Source: Balanoglossus misakiensis (lineage: Eukaryota > Animalia > Hemichordata). From it: a DNA stretch of 64,000 nucleotides. How positions within the stretch are numbered: position 1 is the first letter of the stretch; each line of letters opens with the position of its first letter. Below, in pieces: positions 214 through 63,261 of the stretch. Below the pieces are notes generated by a model. That model saw only the letters and a list, made by a program, of their open reading frames with translations. It made no database searches and was not told where the DNA came from. The DNA is taken from the NCBI GenBank assembly GCA_040954595.2, contig CM082576.2:7133129-7197128 (forward strand). The letters run 5' to 3'. The position numbers and the translations under genes were made by a program.

Positions 214-1034
214 GTTATGGAGAAAGTGTTCCGAGAACTTTCTGGGGTCGAAATGCTGTCATCATCTACGCTCTGATAGGAATACCGCTGACCGGCTGGA
301 CGCTAAGTACAATCGGAAACCACTGGGAAGCAACATTCCGTAAAAAGTGCAAACGGATCAGTCAGACTCTGCCGCGCAAAACGCCAAGATGGGCGCGACG
401 CTTACTCCAAGTGCTGACCGTGGGTCTCATGAGCTGGTTCGTGTTTGTGATCGTCCCAGCACTGATCTTCATGTATCTCGAAGGTTGGGATTTTTACATC
501 GCTCACTATTACACCTTTGTGACCCTGTCCACGATTGGCTTCGGTGACTTTGTGGCCTCGCGCGATTTGAGGATCTCGGAGAGGTACCAGTGGGTTTATG
601 ACGTCACGGTTGCAATATGGTACATCTTTGGTTTGTCGTATTTGTCAGTTGTTATCGCGGCAATCACCAAGCAACAGCACGGGAATTTGAAGAAGGTTAA
701 ATTATTCTCCAAAAAGTTAAGAAAGAGAAGCCGCGCGGATAAAGAAAGATATCTTTTGGAGAAGAGACCTCAACGCCAACAACTTTGGCGCCATAAAATG
801 AGCAGATCCTTGTCTATAGACTCGGGTCTTTCCGCGCTGGACGAGTGTTGCGTGGTGAGAAGATCCCGCATACGGGACTGCCATACTGTGTCGCTGAGTA
901 TTGCTTGTGAGAGACACGGCCTTCAGCACGATGAACAGATTATGGACGCGGAAACAAGATTTATGAATGAAACTGGTTCTGCTGGTCAGCACAATGGCGA
1001 TTTGAAACCAAAGTTGGGATCGTTAGATACTTGA
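214..1034 (+). CDS. K2P (KCNK) potassium channel gene A: terminal coding exon (end of P1 filter, M2, M3, P2, M4, C-tail); first exon not in window
   Basis: Acceptor catctcAG ends at 213. The exon starts in phase 1 as (G)GT TAT GGA = GYGESVPRT, then YALIGIPL (M2), YYTFVTLSTIGFGDFV (P2) and WYIFGLSYL (M4), with stop TGA at 1032-1034 and AATAAA at 1331. The M1/cap exon is presumably upstream of base 1. Confidence 0.9.
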
Positions 1035-1989
1035 TTATTACTGATTGGAGTTTTACAGTTGATCCTAGTTCGTATTATAATCTGAAGTACATTGTACATG
1101 TACGGACAAGAGGGCAAACCAAAATTCCTTGTCTTTTCTTGCAAGAAAAGTGGGCATGTCTAGTTGATACGAGTATAGATCATGTACAGTATCTGTTATT
1201 TTGGATAAATTGATTGTAGTGTCTGTGTCGTACTGTTCTTTCACAACTTTTTAAAATCAATGTTGCTCAGCGAAGTCATTTTTCTATCGGGATTTATACG
1301 GAAGAATAACTTTAATTGACTTCATATTCGAATAAACGTGTATAATTCCCGGTGTGTGCGTTTTCGGTTGGAACACAGGTCACGCGTCGTAAAGGGGCAA
1401 TTTTAAATCTATGTTCCTCACATTAGGGTCTTCGTGACTTTAAAATTAAGTGTTTAGGCCTATGTGTTGAAATATTTAATCCTGGCCATCTGCTTTTAGA
1501 TGATCGAAGCTGATAAAGGTGCGCCTTTAAAACGCCATTTGTGCACATTAATCCATTTTGAATCACAACTAACATATATCAGTTTTGTGAATGAACTAGT
1601 ATGTAAATAAAACATTTAAACAAAATATGTGGTGACATTTTCATTAATCAACTTGTGAATTAATGCAAAATAAACGATTTTCAAGCGACATGTATCTCAC
1701 CTTATGTATGTTTGACAATTCTGTTCCTAAGCTGTGGCTACAGGCCAATAAACGTTTGTCATTTATGACAGGTGCGATCGGCAGCAATGCAGTTGGTTTC
1801 TGTTGTGACTCTTCTTAGTTATCTTCTTAGTTATCTTCTTCATCTATGTATTGCCTCGCGGAACCCGACAATAAGGACGCGGTGCGTGTTGAGGTCCACT
1901 TTTTTTTTTAATGTAAAAGTGGCTGATATAACTACAAATGCGTTGACGAAGAAACATTGGAGCAGCTATGTTGGTATTCACTCTGTAGC

Positions 1990-2216
1990 CTATGTATTGG
2001 ACAAACATTTGTGTAGAATTTATTACTCTCACGCTGCTTGCAGCTATAATAATTATTCTATTATTTTAGCCCTCATAAAATACAGCCGCATCCCGCGTCA
2101 TACCGAGGAACGCAGAGTACAGCGCCCTCAGTCATAAAATATTTTGCAACTTGAAGTTTACAACCTACTTTCGAACAAGGGTCGCTTGGCCGAAGACGGC
2201 GGGTGTAAAGGTCAGT
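1990..2216 (+). promoter_or_regulatory. Putative promoter / non-coding first exon of K2P gene B
   Basis: Locally CpG-rich patch ending in donor-like AAAG|GTCAGT (2210/2211), followed by ~10 kb of CpG-poor DNA with no recognisable ORF. A strong acceptor (ttctttcttacAG, 12341) lies upstream of the gene B ATG. Inference only. Confidence 0.3.
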
Positions 2217-11200: not shown

Positions 11201-12658
11201 CAGGGTTTACAGTATGTAGAAACACAAAAGAGATGCTTTAATAGTTTTTATCCTGTGCATAGTAGTGTCAATGGGTCTCCCTGGGATAATTATGCAGATT
11301 CCATGCTAGCACACTCACAGCCCCATTACTGACAAACTCTGCTATAAATCAATGGAAATTAGCTGAGTTTGCCCTTTCCTAAATAAATTTCTCGCTTCAG
11401 TGAGTCCTTGTCAGATAAAAGACCTTGGTAAATTCCCAAGTCAGGTATCTAATATGCCCTCCTTTCAGTTAGACCCTATTAATGAAATCTGGGATGGAGC
11501 TTTGTTCATCCAATTTGTGTGTATGTCGTCGTGCCTTTTGGTTTAGCACGGTGTATCAAACATGGTTTGTCCAATTTTGTATTTTGAAATAAAACAAATA
11601 CTGTACGATTGTTCTACTTTGGCTAATATTGATTTCAAACTTTGGTTAACACGCTCTTGTTTTTCAGGAAGGATTGTATCATCAATGATGCCATATTGGC
11701 AATTACACCTGATAAAACACAAGGGATCTCAACATGGATTAATTAATCTCATTTTACAGTGGGAAATGTACGTGTCTCTTGGAGTAGCATGCCATAAAAT
11801 TGTATAATATTTGAACCCGGTAAACTCAGGTTCCTATAGAGTTGTCAGGCGATACAACCGTGGCATGCACATATTTTAAAACTGATGAAATGTAAATTTC
11901 ATCTAAAGCAAGCAATATAAATTATTCAGAAACATGACAGTTGTTGTTTCAGAGATCTGACGAAAATTTTCATTGCTTTGTTGATAACATGCTATGTGTA
12001 AATAACTAAAGTAAGTGACACATATTAAGGTGCATCATTTGTGGAATTACCAAAAGAGGTCTGCACTCAAATGGGAAGACCTGGTTTGGCAGGTGATGGG
12101 TGGGCATCAAATGCACTGTACAAATTCTTATAATACAGTATTCTTCTTAATCTCATAAATGATTGATTGTTTCACAGTAGCTGGCTGAAGGTAGCAATAT
12201 CTGTGCTGCTTATCAGAGTCTTGTGATGAAAAATTTCATTTTCAGCAGAGCATGAAGATAGCACCTTATCAAATTTGAAATTAATACTTTTATATATCAA
12301 GCAAGCATTTCTATATCATTCTGTCTATTTCTTTCTTACAGGAACATCAAAGCAGTTTCCAGAACATAAAATACAGGGAATAATTTCAGAGGCTACCAGT
12401 ATCACATATCACCATTGGTGGAACAGTGTCTGAGGAATAAATCGAGACTATAAACAAGAAGTAAAAGCAGTTACAACCAAGTTGTACTTAATTATCTGAT
12501 AATTCTTCAAGCCTGGACCTGCCTGAAGGCCAAGAGTTAGAGCGTGTTTGCCTTTTTCTCTGCCACAACTTGGTCACATGACCAGCATCAGCCAATAGGA
12601 ATCACAGCTCAAGTGAAAAATCTTCGTCTCAAGTGAAGACTGCAGAGGATATACAATC

Positions 12659-12962
12659 ATGCATTGGGTTTCTATGCTAATTCTCAGCATCGTTTTCCTC
12701 GTCTATCTGTTGATCGGCGGCGGCATCTTCATGGCCTTGGAGGCAGACAACGAAGAAGCGGCCCGCGTCGATGTTCGCAAATTCAAGAGCTACTGGAAGA
12801 ACAATTTCAGTTGTGTTGATGAGGAAGCATTGGAAGACCTGATCGTCGCTGTCATGAAGGCCGTCAATAGCGGAGTGTCTCCCATCCAAAATGCCACCAG
12901 TCCGTCAAACTGGGATTATAGCAGCTCCTTCTTCTTTGCTGGTACTGTGGTTACAACTATCG
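12659..12962 (+). CDS. K2P gene B shared first coding exon (M1, cap with Cys, P1 helix up to TTIG)
   Basis: MHWVSMLILSIVFLVYLLIGGGIFMALE...NFSCVDEEAL...SNWDYSSSFFFAGTVVTTIG; phase-1 donor ATC G|GTAAGA at 12962/12963. Confidence 0.95.
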
Positions 12963-14339
12963 GTAAGATCTCATACTTTTTTTTTGGCTTGATCGTACTT
13001 ATATCCAATAGTGATTCATGGTATTTATTGGTCTGAGTATATTAGGTAATACAATTATACTTGCATTTTGGATAGTCAGAGTGAAAGTGTATAAGTTGAA
13101 TCATGTTAGTTCATCAATAGTTCATCAAATCAGCAACAAAGTATGTGACTAAATGCATGCCAGTGATGTTGACCCAGCTAGCATACATTAATTGTTATCA
13201 TGGTGTGAAAGTTTGATTTGTGGTTGTTTATGCAAGTTTTACAGAAATTTGTCACACATGCACCATTGTGGTGATCGGGTTTCTTTAACTGAGTCATTTT
13301 GGATTGACAGGCAACAGGTGAATCTTTCACAATTATATAGAGATCTAGTCATCTCCATCAACTCTAATTAACATATGCCCATATATGGTTGAAAGTGCAT
13401 GTCAACAGTCTCCTGGGTAGTGGCACAGTTTGGTGTATTATTCAAATGGCCATCCTAGTGGTAATCTGTGATCAGCTATTTCCCCAGTTTCCATGGTAAT
13501 TGCTAAATTTGCATAGGTGACTGCATGTGTATACCTTTAATCATTCATACTGCACATGATGAATTTATTATTGATCTCTGAGGATTTTTATCCCATCTGC
13601 ATTGTCCTTATTATTGATAAGGCGTAACAAAGCCATATTGCTTATTAATTTGAATATCATGAATATTTAAAAGTGAAGGGAAATGAGTTTCTGAACAATG
13701 TACATATTTTTTATATTGATATGAGTTTGATCGTTAGTGAAATTAATATCTCCTTGAGTGCAGTGGGTGATAAATGAATTAGTGTTTATCCTATATTGTG
13801 CCAAGTTTTCTATGATTGAAGTTTATCAAAAAGTGTGGGTGTGTGTGTGTTTGTTGAGGATGACTACAAGCACTTTGGTCATCTCTCACACTACAGTGGT
13901 TTAACGTTCTGAGAGTATTTTGGTGCTTGTTCGTATTGATAAGTCTTTGTTGTTTCTTCTGTTGTAAAATGGTGAATGCCTTCACATCATCCACTTCAGT
14001 TTGGCGCTGCCATATCAGAGGAAGACCTCTTGTTCCATGCAGGATCCATGTTTCTCTCTACTGTCATACAACTCAAAGCTGTCTGATTCTTTTTGAAACT
14101 CACCTTTAGTCTAACTTTATAATACTTATCATGCTTGATGCATGATCATTATTGCATGTGTGCATGCAAGGCTATATTAAAGCATTTTTCTACCCTATCC
14201 AAACCCCTGACCAAACCCCGTTCCTGGCACCATCAAAACATCCCATTAAAACATTAATCATTTTCTGTGAACTAAGCCTATAACCATGCATCTCTCATAC
14301 CACATCAGCTTCTCTCTCAAATCTGCTCCACCATCTCAG

Positions 14340-15181
14340 GTTATGGACAGAGTGTCCCAAGAACATTCTGGGGTCGACATGTTGTCATCGTCTACGCTCT
14401 GATGGGAATACCGCTAACTGGCTGGACACTTAGCATAATCGGAAACCACTGGCAAGCAACATTTCGCAAAAACTGCAAAAGGCTCAGTCAGACTCTGCCG
14501 CACAAAACGCCAAGATGGCTGCGACGCTTACTTCAAGTGCTGACCGTGGGTCTCATGAGCTGGTTTGTGTTTGTGGTCGTCCCAGCCCTGATCTTCATGT
14601 ACATTGAAGATTGGGATTTTTACATCGCTCACTATTACACCTTTGTAACCCTGTCCACGATTGGCTTTGGTGACTACGTGGCCTCTCGCGATTTGAAGAT
14701 CTCGGAGAGGTTCCAGTGGGTTTACGACATCGTGGTGGCAGTGTGGTACCTGTTCGGGTTATCGTATCTCGCCGTTGTCATAACGGCGATCAACAAAGAA
14801 CAACACGAGAAATGGAAGGAAATAAAGACACTTTCCAAGACGCTGGGACAGAAGAAGGACGCCGGAAAGGCTGCAGATCATCCGGAGAGCGGAATCGGTG
14901 CTGAGCTTGAGGAATATCAGCAGAACACCGGGAATGGGAGGATGACCAGATCCCTGTCTGTAGACTCTGGTTTATGCAGACTGGTTTTCTGCAGCGGTTC
15001 GTGGCATTGCAAGCGCACAAATCTCCATGCTGTATTGAGTCAGCTGTCCTGTCAAAGGCATGGATTGGAGTGCGCCAAACAGTGCATCAGCAAGTGTAGA
15101 CACCTGAATGGAAACACCCTCGAGTCTGTCGGTGACGGAGGACAAAATGGCCAAACTGTGGAGTCCGAAACCTGCATGTGA
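14340..15181 (+). CDS. K2P gene B alternative terminal exon, body 1 (intronless GYG-M2-M3-P2-M4-tail); 381 aa when joined to 12659-12962
   Basis: Acceptor catctcAG at 14338-14339; (G)GT TAT GGA CAG = GYGQSVPRTFWGR; TIGFGDYV; open to TGA at 15179-15181. Close paralog of 214-1034. AATAAA at 15892 and 15924. Confidence 0.88.
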
Positions 15182-16435
15182 AGAAAGTGACCGATAATTG
15201 TATTATTTATAACTTTGGCAAAAAAAAAACTTTTTTTGTTCAAACATTTGCCCCTATTTATTTTTTACTTTTTTATCAGAAATGCCCAAATTTAACACAT
15301 GGGTATTGTACAAAGAGACATTATACATACAACTCCTTATTTTCTACAACTTATAGCCATGAAAGTGAATTTTGGTTTTAAAAAAGTTGATTCTTGGTCA
15401 AATCTTGCCTAACAAAATTAGGCTTTTGCTCATTAACAATGCCTAAAATTTTCAGGTGGAGTCATTTTACAGCATAGTTAAGTGTTTATGATTCTCATTT
15501 TCATAATCCATGGTCATTTCGTATGTAGGTGTGCAGTAGGTGTGTGCCTGATCAATGGTGCGCCCTCTATAGTTGTCTCTTTGCAGTAGCAAGATGTTAG
15601 TCAAACTTTGATGTACATTGTATTAAAGCTCACAATCTCTCAGGAACTATGGCATATCAAATACAACATAGTTGATCATTGTGTGCATGGTTTTCAAACC
15701 AGTCATGACTTGTTCACCATTTTTCATAGTACAGTAGAGATACTGTCTACAAACTAGAAAGACCATATGAAGTGAGTATATATGTATTGGTAGTTATACA
15801 TGTAGTTATACATGTATAAAACATGGCGCATGCATTTATGTGTACCAGTATGTCTCAAATATAAATGAATGCATGTGATGTATGTCATTAAAATAAATGT
15901 GGTTCTCACTTTAACAATCTGCTAATAAATGTATATTTACCACTTGTCTGTATATAATGACTTAACACTCATGAAGAAGTTCTTTTGTGCTGATCCTTTC
16001 AATGGCTATCTCTGGTGGTTCAAATGATGTACATATACATGCACTTCTTGGTTCTTGGTGAAAGAAGTGGAATTAAACATTGATACTACATGTATATTTA
16101 ATCCTGCCAGCAATGTCCACTATTGTGGTGTACATTATGCATGAGAATCAGTTCACTTTCACAATTAAGATATATGTAACCTTCACTTAATAAATACTTT
16201 TATTTTATTTTAATTTGCCAGTTTACGACTGAAATCAATGATTTAATTGATTGATACGTGTTCACTATTGGATGGTTGATCACTATTCACAATCATTGAA
16301 ATTTCACTTAACTTTTGACCTGAGGAAATAATAGGGGTAGGGGACCAGTTTGAGAATATTACAGCAACTGAAACAATTAACTTTTGTACGATGTATAGAT
16401 TGTCATTTTGCTCCTCTTTGTGCCTCATTTCACAG

Positions 16436-17458
16436 GATATGGCAACATTTCCCCGTCGACCCTCGGAGGGCAGGCCTTCTGCATCCTTTTCGCCTTCATG
16501 GGGATCCCGCTGTGTGGAATCTTCCTGGCGGCCATCGGCGACAAGCTGGGTCAGCGCGCCCGGCAAATGGAAGACAGGATCTCCAAGTGGAAGTACTCGG
16601 CCTCCCACCCGAAGGCGGCTCGTCTCATCTACCTGTTCGTCTTGATCGGCTTGGGAATGTTGCTGTTCATCACCTTCCCGGGTTTGATCATCGGCGCCGT
16701 TGAAGACTGGGAATATCGAACGGCCTGGTATTATTGCTTCATCACCTTGTTTACAATAGGATTTGGTGACTACGTCATGGGTGAGTCGTAATACTGTCAA
16801 ACGGGATATTTTTGTGACAGGAAATTTTTGCGATATCAACAGAAGGGACTATTTGGCATTCTGTTTATCTCCTAATAACATTTAATTGTACACATTGTTC
16901 TTTTGTGGCTATTATTATTGCACTTTTAAGGCTTCCGCAAAGGTCGAGAAAATTTCCCGTTTTACAGTAATTCTTGTGTGAAAAAAAGATCAGCAGTAAC
17001 ATGGTTTAAATTAAAATACAGCCCTTTAAGCACACATGTTCATTTGTCATTTTGTATAGATTATAATCCATTGACCAAGTGTTGTGAAAACTGGCAAGTG
17101 CGTGTAGTAACGAAACAGTGACCTGCATTTGTTGATAGGTACCAACGAAGACAAGGACTACCCATTGGTGTACAAGTGGGCGGGGTACGCCTGGATCATC
17201 ATCGGTCTGGCCTACCTGGCGCTGCTTGTGAACATGATCTCGGATATCATGAAGAAATGGGGCCAGAAGATCAAAGATAACGATGACGAAAAGGGCGGCG
17301 CTGAAGACAACCCCAACGATGAAACCAAAATGACAATGGCCGAGATGGACAACCTTCCCATTATGTCCGGAGAGAGCCAGCAGAACGGGGCAAAGGAGAA
17401 GACTGGATCAACGGAATTGACTGCGGTGAATTCAAATGATGAACATACTCAGATGTAG
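16436..17458 (+). CDS. K2P gene B canonical body 2: exons 16436-16780 and 17139-17458; 322 aa TREK/TALK-like channel when joined to 12659-12962
   Basis: Acceptor ttcacAG at 16435; (G)GA TAT GGC AAC = GYGNISPST; ...TIGFGDYVMG|GTGAGT donor at 16780/16781; acceptor gatAG at 17138; GTNEDKDYPLVYKWAGYAWIIIGLAYL; TAG at 17456-17458. Exon sum 304+345+320=969 nt is in frame. Confidence 0.93.
16794..16967. mobile_element. Tc1/mariner-type MITE in K2P gene B intron
   Basis: Imperfect terminal inverted repeats CTGTCAAACGGGATATTTT / AAAATTTCCCGTTTTACAG, flanked by TA on both sides (16792-16793 and 16968-16969); no coding capacity. Confidence 0.65.
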
Positions 17459-18719
17459 GGGAGCAATTGCAGCTTGAATTGTCTTGTTTTGTGTCCTGTC
17501 GTTTGTTTTGAAAGTTACATAAGAAAAAGAACCAGCTGATTTGTCCTAGCTTAATAGTTGTATTTTTGTTACTTCACTCAAAGAGTTATTTTCTACTGAT
17601 ACATAAGTTATTCTAACCTACGACTGCTATCTGCATGCAAATTTACCATTTCACAGGGTATATCTTATGGTTTGACGTGCCGACCGCACAAAGCACCTTG
17701 ATCCAAACAATTTGGATATATTTTGGGGTGTCGCACATGGAGGGGCAGTTGCAGTCTTCCTATATGAAAAAAAAGTTCATATTGCCTTGCAGACTGTCCT
17801 CAGGCCTCATGGCCGAGCAGACTGCCTCTAAAACACCACATGTGTAGTGGTTCATCCACAATGCCATTATGCAATGCTATAAGTTCTTGAAAACACAAGC
17901 ACATTATTCCACTCAGTATAATTAATGGGAGTGTGTGAAAATGGTGACTTCCTGCTCTCATGGTGCAGATTTCAAACCAAATATGTGCCACATGACATCA
18001 GACGTTTAAATTTCTTTGATACAAAAAGCTTTTGAAAGTTATTGCCAGATTGACAGCTGATTTTCATTGATCATGAGAACGATGTACAAAACATTTTAAC
18101 TAATTAACTTATAATGTGAATTTTATAGGAGAAACCAAAGAACTGTGTTCCTTATGTAGCTGAAGAAATTTTATGTTTAATTTTACACCAAATTTAGATA
18201 TTTTGCTGCTATTATAATTACTAAGTGCAGAAATCACGTTTTACATAAATCTCTCATCAAAAGAGGCTCCCAATTTCTAAAACATTTTATGACATTTTTA
18301 TCGGATGTTGAAATATTGTTTTATCTGTACAGTGTCCTTTACTAGAGAAGTGATGATGTAAAACTGTGACTATTTTTTTGTTAACTTCAGGTTTAATGCC
18401 AAGTTGTGAATTGGGTTTTGGGGGCTACCTGAATCCTTTGGAACAGGGTAGATACTAGCTGTGGAAATGCAGCTGTACCTACTTAATAAGCAGCTAATAC
18501 TATCTACATTAAAAATGCTATTGTTCTTTTTATTTTATTTTAAAATATGACCACTACTCTTTGTACTTAAATTGTATGTGACTGCCTTTTGACTGAACTG
18601 ACTTGAATAGTTTTGAAAGATTCCTGCTTTACTGCAAGAGTACTTGAATTTCAGATTTGGTATAGTTCCAGAGGGTCAAATGTGATCCTGATCAGATTCT
18701 TTATCATTAAACAGTAATG

Positions 18720-18747
18720 AAGAGAGAGAGAGAGAGAGAGAGAGAGA
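18720..18747. repeat. (AG)n microsatellite
   Basis: Direct read of the agagag run. Confidence 0.95.
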
Positions 18748-19410
18748 AACGAAAATGCTTAATTGCATTGTAGGCCATAAACACAGTTTAACAAAAATTA
18801 CTGGTAAACCTCCTTTCTTGGTGCAAAATGTACAGTGAAAATTTACTCTAGGTAAATGAAAACTGTGAAGATGTATAAACATGCCCACTATTGATTTCCT
18901 TGAAATTTATAATGTTAGTCCATGTTCTGACACCTTGGTTCTGACAAACACATATATATAGGTGTGTCATTATCTGCAACCTAATTTTGTAAGATACAAA
19001 CGCCTCTGTATTCCATGCATAGTACCGGTAATTTTATAATGTCAGGTTGTCTCTACAAAATGTGCGTTGAATCAGATGTATTGGAAAACTCAATGCCAAA
19101 GTAAGGTACCGGTACATTTGTAGTCCTAACACACAGATGTGATCTGGTGACCTGTAATTGTATTGTGCCAAGTCGTGCCTTCGTAACAAACACTGATTAC
19201 CGTCATATTGTGTTTTGTGTCAGTGTGAATACAGATCGTGATTTTTAAACTGTGCAGTACTATTTTATGGTTATGGGCACCAGATACATAATAACAGGGT
19301 CATACACAGTCAAGAAATATGTTGTTGTGAATTTTGAGTCATTTTTTCAAATCACGTAACCCACCAACTTGCACTAAAGCATGTAATCTTGCGAGAAAAT
19401 ACTGATGTAG

Positions 19411-19416
19411 AATAAA
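19411..19416 (+). terminator. Likely polyadenylation signal of K2P gene B body 2 (long 3' UTR)
   Basis: AATAAA followed by GT-rich sequence, near the end of the CpG-poor domain. Confidence 0.4.
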
Positions 19417-19470
19417 GTCATCTATAAACAATCTGGTAAAACACTTTGGGCTGTGTGCATTGGTCTCGTG

Positions 19471-19566
19471 TAGTTGTTTGTGATTGGCTAGTTCCTTGTC
19501 AAGTAGTCGTTTGTGATTGGCTAGTTCCTTGTCAAGAGGTTGCTTGTGATTGGCCAGTTCCTTGTC
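19471..19566. repeat. 3 x 33-bp tandem repeat, each unit carrying a CCAAT box (TGATTGGC)
   Basis: Unit TAGTTGTTTGTGATTGGCTAGTTCCTTGTCAAG; ATTGG at 19483, 19516 and 19549. Confidence 0.85.
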
Positions 19567-20197: not shown

Positions 20198-22129
20198 ATG
20201 GCGAAGAAGTGCGACTTGAAGTTGATAATTTTCGGTTTGGGTCTATCGGCGTACTTGATGTTTGGCGCGACAATTTTCATGGTATTGGAATCGGACGCAG
20301 GTGGCGGTTCGATCCGGTCAGAACATCTTCTTGAAGATCATTTGAACGACACCGTGGCAAGACTGCTGGGCGATTGCACCTGTGTGAACGGGGCGGAAGG
20401 CAGGAAGGAAATGATCTCCGCTGCTGTTACGGCTATCATTGACATTGTGAATTCCGCCCCAAATCCCCTCCCCTGGGATTACAGCAACTCTTTCTTCTTC
20501 GCCGGCACAGTAGTCACAACTATAGGTGAGTTGATGCTTACAGAATAGCGACAGAAAATAGAAAAGTCTCGCGTTTCCATGGCAACCATAACGTTGGAAG
20601 TACACTGTAGTGTGAATATTTCTAGTTATACAATCCGGTTTGCCATGTACGACGAACGGATATCTACCTACTGTAACCCGCAACTCATGCATATCTAATC
20701 ATGCACAGAGCTAGCTCATGCATTGCGTTGTGCTGCCTTCTCAGGCTTGTTATAGACTATGCCACAGCACCGTGTTTAAGTCTCTTAGCTGCTATGGCAA
20801 CACACTAGTGTTAACTCCCCCACACGACATTCGCACAACCGTGTTGTGTTGTGTTGTGTTGTGTTGTGTTGTGTTGTGTTGTGTTGTGTTGTGTTGTGTT
20901 GTGTTGTGTTGTGTTGTGTTGTGTTGTGTTGTGTTGTGTTGTGTACCAAACATGAGAAAGATAACACAAACATACTAACATGCTCTTTTCCCAGTCAGAT
21001 ACCTCGGTCTTACATATATAGGCCTATGTACAAGTTTAATTAACAGTCAATTAACCATCCATTATCCACATTAATATTCATCTCTTGCTTGCATAAGGAT
21101 ACGGACACCTTGCTCCGTCGACCCGTGCAGGGCGAGCCTTCTGCATACTCTACGCCTTCGTGGGAATCCCACTCTGCGGTCTTTTCCTCAAAGTCGTCGG
21201 CAACAAACTGGGGAGTAACGCCCGACGACTGGAAGAGCGTCTCAAGAAGTGTGGCTGTTTGGCGGAATATCCCAAGACAACGCGGCTTCTCTACTTGTTG
21301 ATTCTGATCGTCTTCGGCATAGTAGTTTTCATCGCCTTCCCCAGTCTCATCATTTCCGAAGTCGAAGGCTGGAGTTTCTTGGAATCGTGGTACCATTGCC
21401 TGATCACTTTGCTGACAATCGGCTTCGGGGATTTCGTCATGGGTAAGTGTCGAGAGCATCATGTTTTATGAATGCAGAGTACCACTTTAAATAACCGAGC
21501 TGAGGCCCACCAAAATATGTGTTTAATTCCGAAAAAGATTATTCAGTTCAGAATAATGTTATTTTCTGATACATTTTATTATTTTCCAATGTGTGTCTTG
21601 AAGAAGTAATTAATGTGATTAGTTACTTCTTAATTACTTCTGAATAAGAAAACAACGTTAATGCATCACATCCCGGTATCTAGACCAATACAGTACTTAG
21701 CACTCTATTGAAGGAAAGTTGAACATCTCTCACCCAACAGGTAGCAACAAAGACATAGAGTACCATATTGCGTACAAGATCGCTGGTTACTTCTGGATTG
21801 CCATCGGGTTAGCTTACATAGCGCTGCTCATCGACGATATTGCCGATATAATTGCAAAATGGAACGAGAAGATGGAGACGGAGGCCGACGTATTGGGTGA
21901 CCACCTAGGCCTTCCAAAAATGCAACAGTCCGGCATCGACAACACTGGAGTTGAAACGAGTGACAAACTGATAGCCGATGCAGACCCACGCGACGGCGAT
22001 CAGACTGCGGACAGAGAGGCTAATACTACAAGTAACCAACAGCCGGGCGAACAGCAGGGTAACAGAAATAGCGATGATGTGCAGAATCCACGGGACGACG
22101 CTAAGCTACCGACAGCTGATGTGATTTGA
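20198..22129 (+). CDS. K2P (KCNK) potassium channel gene C; exons 20198-20525, 21098-21442, 21741-22129; 353 aa
   Basis: WDYSNSFFFAGTVVTTIG|GTGAG donor; acceptor taAG then GYGHLAPST; LTIGFGDFVMG|GTAAG donor; acceptor aacAG then GSNKDIEYHIAYKIAGYFW; TGA. Exon sum 328+345+389=1062 nt is in frame. Intron positions and the 345-nt exon 2 match gene B body 2. Confidence 0.93.
20573..20586. promoter_or_regulatory. RFX X-box (GTTTCCATGGCAAC) in intron 1 of K2P gene C
   Basis: Matches the RFX consensus GTTNCCATGGNAAC; near matches at 19932-19945 and 20788-20801. Confidence 0.5.
20841..20944. repeat. (GTGTT)n pentanucleotide microsatellite, ~20 copies, intron 1 of gene C
   Basis: Direct read; it explains the spurious VVLCC/HNTTQ ORFs. 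Confidence 0.97.
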
Positions 22130-22599: not shown

Positions 22600-22640
22600 G
22601 AGAGCGCTATCACTTCCGCTCGAACAACATGGCTGCCCTC
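22600..22640 (+). promoter_or_regulatory. Housekeeping-type promoter elements at the WDR74 start
   Basis: Ets-like CACTTCCG (22611-22618) and YY1-like AACATGGC overlapping the ATG, in a CpG-rich context. Confidence 0.4.
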
Positions 22641-25626
22641 ATGAACAACGTGTGGATCGGAGCAGAAACCGGGATCCTCAAAGGTATCGTGAAATGTTTG
22701 ATATATCTAGGCCTAAAGGTCGAATTTTGTAACGTTTCTGCTGATTCAGCGAGCTGTCAAAAATCACCAAGTGTTCGTACGTATCGACGTCAGCTCCATC
22801 CGACACGGACACTGCATCATGCTGCACAGTTCACTGGCACCAAACGCCGGAGACAAAACCTCGGGCAACATCTCGCCAGCTGCAGTACATGTACCACACC
22901 TCGAAGTTTTACCCGGTATTGTGTGTGGACGACAATACTAGGCAAAACGTCGAAGTGTACAGCACTGCAGCAGGGAGAGACCGAGCTCTGTTTGGTAGGA
23001 CTAGTATATGTATGTGTGGTTACCAATTCATCAACAAGGCGTCGTTGTGGTTGGCGGCACGGGTTCACGGCCTTGGCTGCAATGTCACATGAATGGCTCT
23101 ATTTAGGTCTCTGCGATGTAAGCCGTCATTATCGATTTGATTTGTTCCAGGTGTTGATTTAGAAAAGAGAACTGCATCCAACTATTCCAACCTGACAACT
23201 TTAACTAAAGAGCAAGAAATCACAGCAATGTGTTGGGCCAATGATGCAGAGAGTCAGGTAAGGTACTTTGTGTTTGTGTACACTCTAGAAATACTTCAGG
23301 GAAAAAGCATTTCATTTTAAAACCTTTCCCCATTAATTGCACAATAAGCAATCTATCAATTTGGCCTTGCTTCGCCCTTGCCTACAGATGTGCCTGGGAT
23401 TGAGGAATGGTGTTGTGAAGACCTTTGACCTTGACTTGGGTGAATACACAGCAGAAGATGACCGTTCAGGTAGCGAGGGGGCATTTACAGGTCTGGCCAA
23501 GGTGGATGATCATTTAATTACATGTACACAATCAGGTCTGTTGAAAGTCTGGAAAGGAGACTCAGACCAAAATGTAAGTCATTTAGAAGTTACTCCTTGA
23601 CTTGCTAAAAACTGTAGTGTCATATAGGACCAATGCCTCTCTTCAGTCTGATAGTGTGGAACGTTTTTTGGCAGTATCAACCCATAAGCCAAGTTTCATG
23701 TCTACTAATTGTTTTGATATTCACAATCACAAATGACAGCTAAACAAGCGTTTTATTCCATGTATAGGACACAACAAGGATAAGGGACCAGTGTGAAGAT
23801 TGACATGTTTTTCTTTTCAGGTTGAAATCAATGTTGGGGAAAATATTTGCAAGATGAGGCAAAACGACGAAAAGAAAAATTTTGTTGCAACAGGCGGCAA
23901 AGAGAATGATCTCAAAATCTGGGATCTGGAAAATCCGTCTGAAGCAGTATTTAAAGCTAAAAATGTAAGTATTGATGTTCGATCATATAAAAACAAGTGT
24001 CTTTATTGCTGAATTGTGTTGCAAATTTTGCTTAATTCAAGTCCACTTCCCATACAGTACAAGTTGCCCACTGTTCGGCTATGTTACAGCGCCACCAGTG
24101 GTGACTTTGGCTAATTTTTGTTTTTGGACCAAGAAAAAGGCAAACCACAGAAATTGTGCAAAATATTTATTTCAAACCTCAAATTTTGTCATCTGTTTTA
24201 ATTTTACAGGTTCGGAATGATTTTCTTGATCTGCGAGTTCCTGTCTGGGTGTGTGATATGCAGTTCCTCCCGGGAACTTCAAAAATTGTCACATGCACAG
24301 GGCACCGTCATGTAAGTTTGTCTGAAGGGGCATTGGGGAGAGAAACACAGACTAACAAACAATTTTTTGGTGCACAGCACTGCCCACTAATCTGGTGAAA
24401 AGTGGGATTTGAACAACGGTTGGGTCATGTCGGAGTTAAAGTTTATCGTTCATGTTGTATTTGACATGTAGGTGAGAGTCTACGATCCAAGTACGCCACA
24501 GAGACGGCCGGTTTTAAGTGTCGACTTTGAGGAATATCCAGTGATGGCTCTTTCCATAGTACCTGGAGCAAAGTAAGTCTGTTTCTATTCCATGTTCACT
24601 AGGAGCAATCTGCAGAGAATTGCTAGGAGTAGTTATAAGTGATTACCGATATTGAAATGACAATAGTATTTTTTTCTTGGTAGCTCTGTGATAGTCGGCA
24701 ACTCACAGGGAAGGATGGCGAGAATCGATCTCCGCAAGGGTCTGGTGCAGAAAGTGTTCAAGGGACTCGCCGGCAGCGTTCGCAGTATGCAGTGTCACCA
24801 GACAAAGCCATTGGTGGCATCCTGTGGACTGGACAGACATCTGAGAATACACAATGTCAACACAGGACAGTTGAAACAGAAGGTAAACGGCAAACTTTGC
24901 AGAATGATCTCTCCTTGACCAATACACTTCACTTGAGAGAGCGAGAGAGAGAGTGTGTTTGTGTGGGCAAAAAGCAGAGGTCAACTTTCATTGTATTCAA
25001 AGAGTGGCTTCACAAGTACATGAAACTTGATCTGCTTGGCTAACTCTTGGATAAGAGACATATTGACATGTCAGGAAAATTGGACATGTCTTGGTGTACT
25101 GTTACTCGGGAGCCAGAGTTCGGATTTTGTTTGCTGAAGAAAAACACAGCCAATACCTTACACATGTCTGTTTTTGAAGATATGCATTACATTTACATTG
25201 ATGTGTTCTTTTGTAGGTTTATCTCAAATCTAGATTGAACTGTCTGTTATTTTCAAGCAGAGAATCATCAATGGTGAGTGAAACCAAAGTTTCTGCAGAA
25301 AAGTTTCCCAGAACTTTCTGCCTAAGATGAAACATGGGGTGGGGGGGATGAGATCTGCTTTCCTTGTTATTTTTTTCACATTTGCATCAGGTGTGACCAG
25401 GTGACATTGTGTTGCTTTGTTTCCCTCACAGCCGGAAGAGTCGGAGTCTGGTGTTGGAAGAAGGAAGAGAGTGGCGGAAGACCAGGCTGGTCACTCCGGC
25501 AGTGACGACGACGATGATGTGTGGGAAAAGATGGACACCGTCGTGGAAACGTCAACTATGAGCGAAGCCCAGAAATCACAGACAATAAAAGTGTCCAAGA
25601 AAAAGAAAGTAAAGACAAAAGACTGA
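22629..25626 (+). CDS. WDR74: WD repeat-containing protein 74 (Nsa1 homolog, 60S ribosome biogenesis); exons 22629-22683, 23151-23257, 23388-23573, 23821-23964, 24210-24311, 24472-24572, 24684-24882, 25217-25273, 25432-25626; 381 aa
   Basis: Diagnostic motifs VWIGAETGILKGV, VATGGKENDLKIWDL, FKAKNVRNDFLDLRVPVW, VRVYDPSTPQRRPV, GLAGSVRS, ASCGLDRHLRIH and KVYLKSRLNCLL, plus an acidic/basic tail. All introns are GT-AG; total 1146 nt in frame; AATAAA at 25649. Confidence 0.95.
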
Positions 25627-29545: not shown

Positions 29546-30510
29546 GACATGTCATGTCAACTTGCGCTCGATTCAAGTCCAAACAGCAAATGTCACTGCG
29601 AAAAAAACACGATTTTAGCCTTTCAAGAACTCTATCAACACATCGGTTCACCAAGCAAGTGGAAGACAAACAGACACTTACACACAAGCACAGAATTTGG
29701 CAGTGGTGGATGACGATAACACTTGAAGCTGTGTGCAATCATTTTTATGTATCTTTATTTAAAAAAAACAACGAGTATACATGTACTTCCCACTAGTCCA
29801 ATATATCTATGAGAAGTTGGCGATGTGACGTGTTTGAGTATGGCATTCAAGTTGGACAACCACCCTGCACCATTTTAAATTTTATCACCAAATAATGATC
29901 TCCACCGTGACTTAATAAAGGCGGCATGCGCGTCAGAATCATAATGCTGGCCATAAGGAGAAAACTGACGTATATTAATGATTAAAAATATGCTACAAGT
30001 GGCGGCTTATCGGGGCTTTAAGATTCCCCATGCATACATGGGCAAACGGACTCTACTGGACTATGTCCGTGGAGACTTATGACCTTTGTATGACATTGCA
30101 CAGCTATACAACAGTGCGTGAATTTTAAAATCCGTAATTGCTTGTGGGTTATATTACCGACTACACCCTTGCAAATGTGTTGTTTTTAATTGCTATTAAC
30201 GCCGAGACGTTAATTAAATGTTTGTTACCATGGCGACGCTTGCCAGGGGTTGACAGTTAACTATATCAGCATTTTTTGACCAATCAGCCGCAAAATAAGC
30301 ATTAACATTCCCAAATATCCTTGTTGCTGCAATTATTATAATTCCTTTTCTGTCACCGCGTAGAAATCTGGATACACATTTCTCGCAATAGCGCTGTGAT
30401 AGCACTGCAGAGTGTTCAGCTCATAAAAGACGAATTTGTTACGTAACATTTTAATTTATTTTTTTTCCTTTCTGTTTTGCGTCCAAAAGGCATCGTTAGA
30501 CTCGTCACTC

Positions 30511-31581
30511 ATGTCGTTAACGGTTGCCGTGTTGCCCATCATGAATGGCCGTTCGTGGAACCAGACAAAGGGTTTCGATTTTGATGGCAGCGTCATCGCT
30601 CCTCAAAAGTCGACCTTCTCCGAGGCACACTTCAGAAGACGCTGTCGTCTGCACGACATCAACTTGACGAGGACCAAGAACGCCATCGTCCTTGAGTACC
30701 GCCTGGTCAGCATGGATCTAGCGCAGGAGCAGAAGCGGATGAGACGGAAACTGCAAAATCTGCAGGTGAAGAAAGGCGACATCGAACGGGAGAGACACGC
30801 CACGCGGCGTCACTCGGTGGACACCAGTAGATTAGAGGTGCCCCCGCAGGTGTTTGGGAGGAGAAAATTATCAGACGACGCGTCCTCTACGGGTTCTGAT
30901 TTGGCGCCAGGGCAGGCGAAGGCTGCGGCGCCGTCCTCCAAAACTGCAGGTGCATCTTCCGGAGGGGCGAGGCATTCCGAATACAAAGATCCGCCACCGC
31001 CGTCACCGCGAAAATCAAGCACGAACTCTACACCCAGACGGAGACTATCCAGCGAGGAGTCGTCTTCCGTGCACTCGGCGAAATCCGACGAATCGTCGCA
31101 GCCCACGAAACTCCCGGAAATAGACCTGCTCACGAGGGCGAAGGTCCAACCTGTAGTCCAAAAGTGGAAATCCTTGGCTAAGAAGAAGGGGTCGGCGGCC
31201 ACTTTCATCACGGACAATTCAGGACACGACGGCGTCTGCCTCAGTCTTGCGAGACGGAACAGCCTCCAGCACCCCGTCAGCAGTTTCGCGAACACCGAAG
31301 GCGACGATCAACCGCTGGACGCCGCACCGCAAGACATCGCTGCAGTGGCTCCCAAACCGCGCTACCAGAGGACGAACAGCCTGGCATCTGCGAAACAAGG
31401 AGGAATGTCCAACTGGCTCGGCATGAACGACAAAACTCTGAAAACCACCCGTAGAAAATCCGTTTCTAGTGTCGCCAGCGCTCCCGCACAGGACGAGAAA
31501 GACAAGAAGAAGATCTCCTTTGCAGCATTGGTCGACACTGTTATGGCGATGAAAGCATCGGGTATAATAAAAGACGTTTGA
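30511..31581 (+). CDS. Uncharacterised ~356 aa protein: N-terminal coiled coil, then Ser/Pro/Lys/Arg-rich disordered region (faint CCDC190-like resemblance)
   Basis: Long GC-rich open frame in AT-rich surroundings; polypyrimidine tract and acceptor AG at 30488-30489; first in-exon ATG at 30511 (alternative 30541); coiled-coil-like MDLAQEQKRMRRKLQNLQVKK; TGA at 31579-31581. Confidence 0.8.
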   Translation: MSLTVAVLPIMNGRSWNQTKGFDFDGSVIAPQKSTFSEAHFRRRCRLHDINLTRTKNAIVLEYRLVSMDLAQEQKRMRRKLQNLQVKKGDIERERHATRRHSVDTSRLEVPPQVFGRRKLSDDASSTGSDLAPGQAKAAAPSSKTAGASSGGARHSEYKDPPPPSPRKSSTNSTPRRRLSSEESSSVHSAKSDESSQPTKLPEIDLLTRAKVQPVVQKWKSLAKKKGSAATFITDNSGHDGVCLSLARRNSLQHPVSSFANTEGDDQPLDAAPQDIAAVAPKPRYQRTNSLASAKQGGMSNWLGMNDKTLKTTRRKSVSSVASAPAQDEKDKKKISFAALVDTVMAMKASGIIKDV

Positions 31582-47282: not shown

Positions 47283-50200
47283 AATTTTGGTGATTTTGTC
47301 ATTTTTGGGCATTTTTCATGGGTTATAGCTCATTAAAATCTTCAAAAACGACCATTTTTCGACTTTGCGAATTTTCAAAATTTCTTCATTCTTTGAAAAA
47401 AATCATGGGTTATACTCATGAAAATCATCCAAAAATGACGATTTTTCGACTTTCCGAAATATCAAAATTTCTTCATATTTTGGCAAAAATCATGGGTTAT
47501 AGCTCATGAAAATCATCCAAAAATGACGATTTTTCGACTTTCCGAAATATCAAAATTTCTTCATATTTTGGCAAAATCATGGGTTATAGCTCATGAAAAT
47601 CATCCAAAAATGACGATTTTTCGACTTTCCAAAATATCAAAATTTCTTCACTTTTTGACAAAAATCATGGGTTATATAGCTCATGAAAATCATCCAAAAA
47701 TGACGATTTTTCGACTTTCCGAAATATCAAAATTTCTTCACTTTTTGACAAAAATCATGGGTTATAGCTCATGAATATCATCCAAAAATGACGATTTTTC
47801 GACTTTCCGAAATATCAAAATTTCTTCACTTTTTGACAAAAATCATGGGTTATAGCTCATGAAAATCATCCAAAAATGACGATTTTTCGACTTACCGAAA
47901 TATCAAAATTTCTTCATATTTTGGCAAAAATCATGGGTTATAGCTCATGAAAATCATCCAAAAATGACGATTTTTCGACTTTCCAAAATATCAAAATTTC
48001 TTCATATTTTGGCAAAAATCATGGGTTATAGCTCATGAAAATCATCCAAAAATGACGATTTTTCGACTTTCCGAAATATCAAAATTTCTTCACTTTTTGA
48101 CAAAAATCATGGGTTATAGCTCATGAAAATCATCCAAAAATGACGATTTTTCGACTTTCCGAAATATCAAAATTTCTTCACTTTTTGACAAAAATCATGA
48201 GTTATAGCTCATGAAAATCATCCAAAAATGACGATTTTTCGACTTTCCGAAATATCAAAATTTTTTCACTTTTTGACAAAAATCATGGGTTATAGCTCAT
48301 GAAAATCATCCAAAAATGACGATTTTTTGACTTTCCGAAATATCAAAATTTCTTCACTTTTTGACAAAAATCATGGGTTATAGCTCATGAAAATCATCCA
48401 AAAATGACGATTTTTCGACTTTCCAAAATATCAAAATTTCTTCATATTTTGGCAAAAATCATGGGTTATAGCTCATGAAAATCATCCAAAAATGACGATT
48501 TTTCGACTTTCCGAAATATCAAAATTTCTTCACTTTTTGACAAAAATCATGGGTTATAGCTCATGAAAATCATCCAAAAATGACGATTTTTCGACTTTCC
48601 AAAATATCAAAATTTCTTCACTTTTTGACAAAAATCATGGGTTATAGCTCATGAAAATCATCCAAAAATGACGATTTTTCGACTTTCCGAAATATCAAAA
48701 TTTCTTCACTTTTTGACAAAAATCATGGGTTATAGCTCATGAAAATCATCCAAAAATGACGATTTTTTGACTTTCCGAAATATCAAAATTTCTTCACTTT
48801 TTGACAAAAATCATGGGTTATAGCTCATGAATATCATCCAAAAATGACGATTTTTCGACTTTCCGAAATATCAAAATTTCTTCATTTTTTGACAAAAATC
48901 ATGGGTTATAGCTCATGAAAATCATCCAAAAATGACGATTTTTCGACTTTCCGAAATATCAAAATTTCTTCACTTTTTGACAAAAATCATGGGTTATAGC
49001 TCATGAAAATCATCCAAAAATGACGATTTTTCGACTTTCCGAAATATCAAAATTTCTTCACTTTTTGACAAAAATCATGGGTTATAGCTCATGAAAATCA
49101 TCCAAAAATGACGATTTTTCGACTTTCCGAAATATCAAAATTTCTTCACTTTTTGACAAAAATCATGTGTTATAGCTCATGAAAATCATCCAAAAATGAC
49201 GATTTTTCGACTTTCCGAAATATCAAAATTTCTTCACTTTTTGACAAAAATCATGGGTTATAGCTCATGAAAATCATCCAAAAATGACGATTTTTCGACT
49301 TTCCGAAATATCAAAATTTCTTCACTTTTTGACAAAAATCATGGGTTATAGCTCATGAAAATCATCCAAAAATGACGATTTTTCGACTTTCCGAAATATC
49401 AAAATTTCTTCACTTTTTGACAAAAATCATGGGTTATAGCTCATGAAAATCATCCAAAAATGACGATTTTTCGACTTTCCAAAATATCAAAATTTCTTCA
49501 CTTTTTGACAAAAATCATGAGTTATAGCTCATGAAAATCATCCAAAAATGACGATTTTTCGACTTTCCGAAATATCAAAATTTCTTCACTTTTTGACAAA
49601 AATCATGGGTTATAGCTCATGAAAATATCCAAAAATGACTATTTTTCGACTTTCCGAAATATCAAAATTTCTTCACTTTTTGACAAAAATCATGGGTTAT
49701 AGCTCATGAAAATCATCCAAAAATGACGATTTTTCGACTTTCCGAAATATCAAAATTTTTTCACTTTTTGACAAAAATCATGGGTTATAGCTCATGAAAA
49801 TCATCCAAAAATGACGATTTTTCGACTTTCCAAAATATCAAAATTTCTTCATATTTTGGCAAAAATCATGGGTTATAGCTCATGAAAATCATCCAAAAAT
49901 GACGATTTTTCGACTTTCCGAAATATCAAAATTTCTTCACTTTTTGACAAAAATCATGGGTTATAGCTCATGAAAATCATCCAAAAATGACGATTTTTCG
50001 ACTTTCCAAAATATCAAAATTTCTTCACTTTTTGACAAAAATCATGGGTTATAGCTCATGAATATCATCCAAAAATGACGATTTTTCGACTTTCCGAAAT
50101 ATCAAAATTTCTTCATTTTTTGACAAAAATCATGGGTTATAGCTCATGAAAATCATCCAAAAATGACGATTTTTCGACTTTCCGAAATATCAAAATTTCT

Positions 50201-62950: not shown

Positions 62951-63098
62951 CATGTAAACGCAAAGAGACGCCTGTGACAGAAATAAGTTAGAGAAACAAG
63001 AACAGCTAATATTAATATGTGATCATTGTGTAAACAAGAAGACAACAACAACAACAACAGTTATTGTCATTATATTATCATTTAGAAACAAAAACACG

Positions 63099-63261
<163 letters not shown>

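What the first reader, a model, noticed from the sequence alone, without database searches (positions are those of the whole stretch)
12659..17458. One K2P head exon, two complete alternative channel bodies, spliced inside the selectivity filter
Seen: exon 12659-12962 ends ACT ATC G|gt (phase 1, at the first Gly of GYG). Two in-frame acceptors follow, at 14340 (GYGQSVPRT..., single exon to stop) and 16436 (GYGNISPST..., plus exon 17139-17458). I found no other M1/cap/P1 exon between 1034 and 16436, and AATAAA signals (15892, 15924) lie between the two bodies. Inference: alternative last-exon/polyadenylation choice yields two very different channels (381 vs 322 aa) sharing only M1, cap and P1 helix, with M2, M3, P2, M4 and the tail all exchanged. 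Established: K2Ps are dimers joined through the cap (Cys in NFSCV), so identical caps could favour heterodimers between isoforms and give three channel types from one promoter. The K2P variants I know mostly change termini or truncate; I do not know of whole-body swapping, but cannot search to confirm novelty.
Basis: partly seen in the sequence, partly recalled or inferred. Interest (0 to 1): 0.9.

Follow-up and report, generated by a model that had tools for sequence, protein, structure and literature searches.

The report
One head, two potassium channel bodies
An acorn-worm gene for a two-pore potassium channel has one front exon followed by two intact, very different channel bodies, a layout also annotated in sea stars, so it likely makes two channels from one gene, and these are predicted to respond to outside pH in opposite directions.

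Summary
In an acorn-worm (enteropneust) cluster of two-pore potassium (K2P) channel genes, head exon 12659-12962 (M1, cap, P1 helix) is the only intact head upstream of two open bodies: A (14340-15181, 381 aa product) and B (16436-16780 + 17139-17458, 322 aa). The bodies are about 33% identical. No RNA run was listed, so neither junction was seen in this species. RefSeq, however, annotates identical-head isoform pairs X1 (A) and X2 (B) in Asterias rubens, A. amurensis and Acanthaster planci. Saccoglossus models also join one head to both bodies. The layout therefore likely predates the echinoderm-hemichordate split. New here: at the TALK1 R233 pH-sensor site, A-type bodies carry Asp (19 of 19) and B-type bodies Lys/Arg (10 of 11). 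TALK1 R233E is acid-activated and Ca/Mg-inhibited through D94/S97, and the shared head keeps both residues. The two isoforms are therefore predicted to be gated oppositely by pH; this is untested. Corrections: the filter sequence TIGYG is the same in both products, the intron site also occurs in the neighbouring gene, and a decayed head copy lies at 1787-1999. I found no paper on this layout. The scan noted a mirror layout (two heads, one body) in insects.

The parts
12342..12658 (+). Probable 5' UTR part of the head exon, from an acceptor at 12341/12342; one 6-codon upstream ORF at 12578
   Evidence: Pyrimidine fraction 0.83 before the AG; upstream ATG scan; inferred, no transcript seen
12659..12962 (+). 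Shared head, coding part: M1, cap with Cys53, P1 helix, TTI-G; carries the residues equivalent to TALK1 D94, S97 and F100; phase-1 GT donor
   Evidence: 74% and 68% identical to two Ptychodera heads, 60-61% to Saccoglossus
14340..15181 (+). Body A, a single terminal exon: GYG, M2, M3, P2 (TIGFGD), M4, tail; Asp231 at the TALK1 R233 site; no intron at the P2 site
   Evidence: 75% to Ptychodera P0002, 67% to Saccoglossus P0003, 46-50% to the sea-star and brittle-star A-type bodies compared
15892..16194 (+). Candidate polyadenylation signals for the A transcript (AATAAA at 15892, 15924, 16189)
   Evidence: Seen in the sequence; use not tested
16436..16780 (+). Body B, first exon: GYG, M2, M3, P2; phase-1 donor
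   Evidence: B core 73% to Ptychodera P0001, 61% to Saccoglossus P0004
17139..17458 (+). Body B, last exon: P2-M4 loop, M4 with Lys229 at the TALK1 R233 site, tail, stop
19411..19416 (+). Candidate polyadenylation signal for the B transcript
   Evidence: Seen in the sequence; use not tested
214..1034 (+). Body A', an intact paralogue of A whose head must lie upstream of the window
   Evidence: 83% aa and 86% nt identical to A in the core, dN/dS 0.22
1787..1999 (+). Decayed copy of the head exon
   Evidence: 128/196 bases identical, starts at the ATG, stops and frameshifts
20198..22129 (+). Neighbouring B-like K2P gene with its own head (exons 20198-20525, 21098-21442, 21741-22129; 353 aa), with the same two intron positions as head+B
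   Evidence: groups with the second half of Ptychodera P0001 at 96/91

Best explanation
One head exon is followed by two intact K2P channel bodies and is likely spliced to either one by alternative last-exon choice, giving two subunits with identical M1, cap and P1 helix that are predicted to differ in outside-pH gating. Splicing 12962 to 14340 with polyadenylation near 15.9-16.2 kb would give A; skipping to 16436 would give B. The layout likely arose before the echinoderm-hemichordate split, when two neighbouring paralogues in a tandem cluster came to share one head at the phase-1 GYG intron, and it has been kept in sea stars and acorn worms. B keeps a basic residue at the top of M4, like TALK/TASK2/TREK channels. 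A has Asp there, facing D94/S97-equivalent residues supplied by the shared head. By analogy with the TALK1 R233E mutant, A would be held shut by Ca/Mg and opened by acid. Where both are made in one cell, A/B heterodimers would be a third channel type. Shown: anatomy, constraint, annotated pairs in relatives, the charge swap. Inferred: junction use here, origin by head sharing, gating, heterodimers.
For: Only one intact head lies upstream of both bodies. Both bodies are conserved. For A versus A', dN/dS is 0.22 at dS 0.41, and A has 9 assignable changes against 12 for A' over 162 columns, where neutral drift would give about 32-56 in 156 codons. B is 73% identical to Ptychodera. RefSeq isoform X1/X2 pairs with identical heads: A. 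amurensis XP_071807740 / XP_071807964, A. rubens XP_033628386 / XP_033628411, Acanthaster XP_022093050 / XP_022093054. The four head differences between the two Asterias species appear in both isoforms. Saccoglossus P0003 (head-A-B1 in that order) and P0004 (head-B1) share the head exactly. Of 132 near-identical head pairs among 145 proteins, 6 have bodies under 60% identical, and all 6 are these A/B pairs. A-type bodies form one group (11 of 11, 95/92), and A plus B as one clade is rejected, p-AU 0.014. Asp at the 233 site occurs in 19 of 19 A-type proteins and in 0 of 86 parsed other segments. PMC9168622, sections 7 and 9. Heterodimer model of the Asterias pair: score 0.71, best control 0.00, contacts agree at least 93% between runs, partner pLDDT at least 76; this mark was reached by 51 of 78 solved and 2 of 108 mismatched microbial pairs, and the pass may come from likeness to solved K2P dimers.
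Against: No junction was observed in this species. The relatives' isoforms are automated annotations whose read support I could not see. The Saccoglossus evidence is one chimeric partial model plus one truncated model. Ptychodera (heads 72/101 identical) and Amphiura (50/101, different contigs) carry A and B behind different heads, so sharing is not universal. Only A-type was seen in Patiria and the sea urchins, and only B-type in Glandiceps and Holothuria, in limited searches. On gating: Asp is shorter than the tested Glu. The L114 coupling residue is Ser here and variable in A-type bodies. Many A-type bodies have Lys/Arg at position 113, which could neutralise the Asp. TREK-1/2 also have Lys at this site, and TALK1 R233K has pK above 10, so B may barely respond in the physiological range.
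Confidence: 0.8

Rival explanations
1. Both isoforms exist, but the Asp/Lys difference does not reverse pH gating. The two bodies differ mainly in tail regulation, trafficking or tissue use, and the Asp has a structural role.
For: L114 is not kept in A-type bodies and position 113 is often basic. TREK channels have Lys at this site. PMC9520024 states that pH sensitivity also depends on the coupling residues. The tails are unrelated.
Against: Asp is invariant in 19 of 19 A-type proteins and absent in 86 other parsed segments. The D94 and S97 equivalents are present in all 14 A-type rows that have a head.
Confidence: 0.45
2. Only one body is still used in this species. The other is a recently silenced leftover, with A' and the downstream gene doing its job, as the split heads in Ptychodera might suggest.
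For: Separate-head paralogues of both types flank the locus (A' at 214, a B-like gene at 20198). Ptychodera shows A and B behind two different heads. No transcript was seen here.
Against: Both bodies have open frames, canonical splice sites and intact filters. A is not evolving faster than A' (9 versus 12 changes), and a neutral 279-codon exon stays open in 0.1-2.3% of simulations. B has a short branch, 0.13.
Confidence: 0.1
3. The layout is an assembly collapse or mis-join, or B has its own head that is missing from the assembly.
For: The cluster is duplicated and holds a decayed head. No genome or reads were available to check the assembly.
Against: The window has no N. The same head-A-B order is in the Saccoglossus model, and shared heads occur in three sea stars. 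No repeat links the two introns.
Confidence: 0.04
4. Head sharing arose independently in sea stars and in acorn worms from an ancestral A-B tandem pair, rather than once.
For: Brittle star and Ptychodera have separate heads. Only 3 asteroid and 2 enteropneust species show sharing. The head tree is unresolved, with 1 of 13 inner branches starred.
Against: The same two body lineages are paired at the same intron in both phyla. Secondary separation by head duplication is visible within enteropneusts.
Confidence: 0.2

Closest known systems
RefSeq sea-star isoform pairs (Asterias rubens, A. amurensis, Acanthaster planci KCNK-like X1/X2) and Saccoglossus models XP_077869262 / UniRef A0ABM0MQG7
   Same: One head joined at GYG to the same two body lineages.
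   Different: Automated annotations under inconsistent names (KCNK2-, 4-, 10-, 16-, 17-like). I found no paper that describes them.
Vertebrate TALK1/TALK2/TASK2 (KCNK16/17/5) and TREK/TRAAK K2P channels
   Same: Four-helix, two-pore fold, cap Cys, both filters. Best solved relatives are TREK/TRAAK, then TASK2. The human TALK genes are clustered and form heterodimers (PMC9520024, passages).
   Different: They are separate genes with separate heads. TALK1 splice variants change only the tail or lose M4. None of the non-A segments parsed has an acidic residue at the 233 site.
TALK1 R233E laboratory mutant (PMC9168622)
   Same: Acidic residue at the top of M4, with D94 and S97 present.
   Different: The mutant is engineered and has Glu with L114 intact. 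Body A has a natural Asp, and Ser at the 114 site.
NALCN alternative pore exons (PMC3557258, abstract) and Drosophila Shaker alternative 3' ends (recalled; only reference titles seen)
   Same: Duplicated, alternatively used exons in a channel gene, kept over long times in invertebrates.
   Different: NALCN swaps small exons that change filter residues. Here about two thirds of the subunit is exchanged between ancient paralogues and the filter stays the same.
Insect K2P gene with two alternative heads on one body (earlier scan note e1-7506955, unchecked)
   Same: Module swapping at the GYG exon boundary of a K2P gene.
   Different: It is the mirror image: the heads vary and the body is shared.

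Membership tests
K2P (KCNK) channels | Two pore loops with K+ filter sequences in one subunit | tested here: met
   TIGYG and TIGFGD in both products; PF07885 above cut-off in both bodies
K2P (KCNK) channels | Four membrane helices and an extracellular cap | tested here: met
   Alignment to TREK/TRAAK. Model of the Asterias A isoform matches TRAAK 3um7 at E 7e-14, TM 0.80 by target. The window's own joined proteins were not folded.
K2P (KCNK) channels | Dimeric, K+-selective background current | not testable with these tools
   Needs electrophysiology. The dimer model may reflect likeness to solved structures.
TALK subfamily (KCNK5/16/17) | Basic pH sensor at the top of M4 | tested here: not met
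   Not met by isoform A (Asp231); met by isoform B (Lys229)
TALK subfamily (KCNK5/16/17) | Orthology to vertebrate TALK genes | tested here: inconclusive
   Neither body groups with the six vertebrate TALK rows (100/97). B lies in an open group with TREK-like and invertebrate rows; A lies with a third ambulacrarian type.
TALK subfamily (KCNK5/16/17) | Activation by external alkali | not testable with these tools
   Needs recording
Alternative last-exon genes | One donor, two mutually exclusive terminal modules, each with a stop and a poly(A) signal | tested here: met
   (sequence level)
Alternative last-exon genes | Both junctions present in RNA | not testable with these tools
   No RNA holder listed; indirect support from isoform annotations of relatives

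The most novel reading that the evidence does not exclude
A single ambulacrarian gene, kept for over 500 million years, encodes a natural pair of oppositely pH-gated K2P channels. B is alkali-favoured. A is an acid-activated, Ca/Mg-inhibited channel whose metal site is completed by Asp/Ser residues in the shared head, the natural counterpart of the TALK1 R233E mutant. A/B heterodimers give a third, non-monotonic pH response, so splice choice sets the sign of a cell's response to acidification.
Probability: 0.3. Interest if true: 0.82.

Novelty: new variant of a known kind. Interest (0 to 1): 0.62.

Why it matters
The K2P splice variants I found in print change the termini or remove M4. Here most of the subunit, including half the pore and the pH-sensor helix, is exchanged between two ancient paralogues behind one head. 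The pair is a natural chimera experiment on which K2P properties come from the head and which from the body. It also allows a direct test of whether identical caps drive heterodimer assembly. It makes a cheap prediction of a natural carboxylate and divalent-ion pH gate, relevant to how sea stars and acorn worms sense acidification. Finally, it explains broken or chimeric database models of this locus, such as the 451-aa three-pore Saccoglossus model.

Tried and rejected
RNA evidence: no RNA holder listed for 12300-19500, so no reads could be laid; this is no evidence either way. No whole genome is held, so the head of A' and synteny beyond the window are unseen. A hidden intact head for B was rejected by motif scan, tblastn and a 23-head profile. 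Decayed bodies in the first 26 kb were not found by local alignment. A mixed A/B body through a P2 intron in A was rejected: the homologous site reads G|CC, and no GTAAG or GTGAG lies in A. That the splice changes the filter was rejected. Recent duplication of A from B was rejected. The head tree was uninformative, with 1 of 13 branches starred. A single-sequence fold of P0060 was poor (pLDDT 41.6) and was not used. Literature searches found no description of this layout, judged from search listings only: 17 papers; 2; 12; 1; 0; 4; 3; 15 of 152 listed. One search (TALK-1 variant names) gave 0. One search gave 6 Shaker papers, and the one opened held only an abstract and references, so the Shaker comparison is recalled. 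The library lacks most subscription journals and I opened no supplements. Earlier scan notes: none by sequence or in this genome.
Full report
Setting. The window has no N and 39% GC. Its first 22 kb hold a cluster of two-pore potassium (K2P) channel exons on the + strand. The nearest named relatives are from the acorn worms Ptychodera flava, Glandiceps talaboti and Saccoglossus kowalevskii, so the source is an enteropneust hemichordate. The order is: body A' (214-1034), a decayed head (1787-1999), head 1 (12659-12962), body A (14340-15181), body B (16436-16780, 17139-17458), a separate B-like gene (20198-22129), then a WD40 gene. No genome is held.

Observation. AATAAA occurs at 15892, 15924 and 16189, between the bodies. 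A motif scan, tblastn and a profile of 23 heads find intact heads only at 12659 and 20198. A weak tblastn hit led to a decayed head at 1787-1999: 128 of 196 aligned bases identical, score 85 against a best unrelated score of 61.5 among 508 windows. It lacks the P1 helix and lies upstream of head 1. The splice sits in the first Gly codon of GYG, but TIGYG is the same in both products, and the neighbouring gene has the same intron.

Both bodies are under constraint. A and A' differ with dS 0.41 and dN 0.09 over 156 codons. With Ptychodera as outgroup, 9 changes fall on A and 12 on A' over 162 columns. Neutral drift at 0.1-0.2 changes per site would give about 32-56 changes in the core and would leave the whole exon open in only 2.3% to 0.1% of 2000 runs. 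B is 73% identical to its Ptychodera counterpart. Head 1 is the only intact head within the window upstream of A and B, so both most likely use it. This is an inference; no transcript from this species was seen.

Relatives show the same layout. A search with the Asterias head returned 14 proteins. Three species have RefSeq isoforms X1 and X2 with heads identical at 101 of 101 positions and bodies identical at only 49-54 of about 156: A. amurensis, A. rubens and Acanthaster planci. X1 is A-type and X2 is B-type in each. The four head differences between the two Asterias species are carried by both isoforms, as expected for one shared exon. In Saccoglossus, a 451-aa model reads head, A, then the first B exon, and an older 211-aa model reads the same head then B. 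Among 145 of 230 held proteins with a head and at least 60 body residues, 132 pairs have heads at least 90% identical. Six of these have bodies under 60% identical, and all six are A/B pairs. Two unnamed fragments match the Asterias head ending at the donor and body A running unbroken from an intron-like start, consistent with the same exon structure. That RefSeq X isoforms usually rest on transcript alignments is my own knowledge; I could not see their read support.

Results against universality. Ptychodera has A and B behind two different heads (72 of 101 identical). Amphiura has them on different contigs with heads 50 of 101 identical. Only A-type was seen for Patiria and the sea urchins, and only B-type for Glandiceps and Holothuria. 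These searches are word-limited (the Glandiceps protein was missed and found), so absence means little.

History. In a tree of 39 body cores (chosen from 72, which were dereplicated from 98), all 11 A-type rows form one group (95/92). Eight of 9 B-type rows group at 90/82 within an open set that includes TREK-like and amphioxus rows. A plus B as one clade is rejected (p-AU 0.014). The bodies are therefore old paralogues rather than a recent exon duplication. The simplest account is that two neighbours in a tandem cluster came to share one head at the phase-1 intron, before the echinoderm-hemichordate split (over 500 million years, recalled). Later head duplications re-separated them in some lineages. 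Independent origins in sea stars and acorn worms are not excluded, because the head tree is unresolved.

A functional difference. A rodent TALK1-like protein in the set has the published numbering D94, S97, T108, L114, R233. In the alignment, the 233 site is Asp in 15 of 15 A-type rows and Lys/Arg in 10 of 11 B-type rows. Over all held proteins it is Asp in 19 of 19 A-type proteins, several of them close orthologues. It is Asp or Glu in 0 of 86 other segments that the pattern could parse; 22 were not parsed. PMC9168622 (passages and sections 7 and 9) reports that R233 is the TALK1 pH sensor. R233E is activated by acid and by removal of Ca/Mg through a pocket with D94 and S97, and WT-R233E dimers give a U-shaped curve. 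The shared head supplies the D94 and S97 equivalents. Isoform A would therefore resemble R233E, and isoform B the wild type or R233K. Against this: Asp is shorter than Glu; L114 is Ser here and variable in A-type bodies; position 113 is often basic in A-type bodies; TREK channels also have Lys at the site; and R233K has pK above 10. I put the full opposite-gating picture at about 0.3.

Heterodimers. Human TALK1, TALK2 and TASK2 form heterodimers although their heads differ (PMC9520024, passages). A model of the Asterias B/A pair scored 0.71 with best control 0.00, at least 93% agreement in contacts between runs and partner pLDDT of at least 76. This mark was reached by 51 of 78 solved and 2 of 108 mismatched microbial pairs, and by 39 of 65 novel solved and 2 of 126 unrelated eukaryotic pairs. 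K2P dimers are solved, so the pass may be from memory.

Comparison with what is known. Both products are K2P subunits by sequence, and the Asterias A isoform also by fold. Neither is a clear TALK orthologue, and A fails the basic-sensor test. Known TALK1 variants change the tail or lose M4. TREK-1 varies by alternative translation start (PMC8616229, passages). NALCN swaps small pore exons (PMC3557258, abstract). Alternative terminal modules as such are a known kind, with Shaker 3' ends as a recalled example. Ten searches of an open-access library found no description of whole-body exchange in a K2P gene or of this locus; they are listed under Tried and rejected. An unchecked scan note describes the mirror layout in insects.

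Verdict. The feature is real and old, already visible in database annotations of sea stars, and apparently undescribed in the papers I could search. Use of both bodies from one head: about 0.85. The whole explanation as stated, excluding the direction of gating: 0.8. Novelty: new variant of a known kind. Interest 0.62, rising to about 0.8 if the opposite pH gating holds.

Noticed in passing
window 1787-1999 (+): Decayed copy of the K2P head exon right after body A', with no matching body found downstream before 12.3 kb.
   Followed up: yes
window 214-1034 (+): Body A' is closer to A (83%) than either is to Ptychodera (72-75%), suggesting a lineage-specific duplication or gene conversion. Its head lies outside the window.
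   Followed up: partly
window 20198-22129 (+): Third K2P gene with a divergent head: a Gly-rich insertion in the cap, Asn at the S97 site, and His after GYG (the position of the TASK acid-sensing His, recalled).
   Followed up: partly
window 22630-25623 (+): Multi-exon WD40 gene starting about 500 bases after the third K2P gene; it looks like WDR74/NSA1 (name recalled; Pfam gave only weak WD40 hits). Useful as a synteny marker.
   Followed up: no
window 30487-31581 (+): Ser/Arg-rich 364-aa open frame with no Pfam match.
   Followed up: no
P0001, P0003, P0005: Database models fuse neighbouring K2P genes or bodies: 640-aa four-pore models in Ptychodera and a fish, and a 451-aa three-pore model in Saccoglossus. 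These are likely annotation artefacts of tandem clusters.
   Followed up: partly
P0069, P0219: A crinoid protein and an older sea-urchin A-type protein are labelled 'isoform X1'. Their X2 partners were not retrieved and could extend the shared-head layout.
   Followed up: no
window about 47300-47800, 20840-20945 and 63030-63250: Tandem repeat arrays and microsatellites seen in the frame listing.
   Followed up: no
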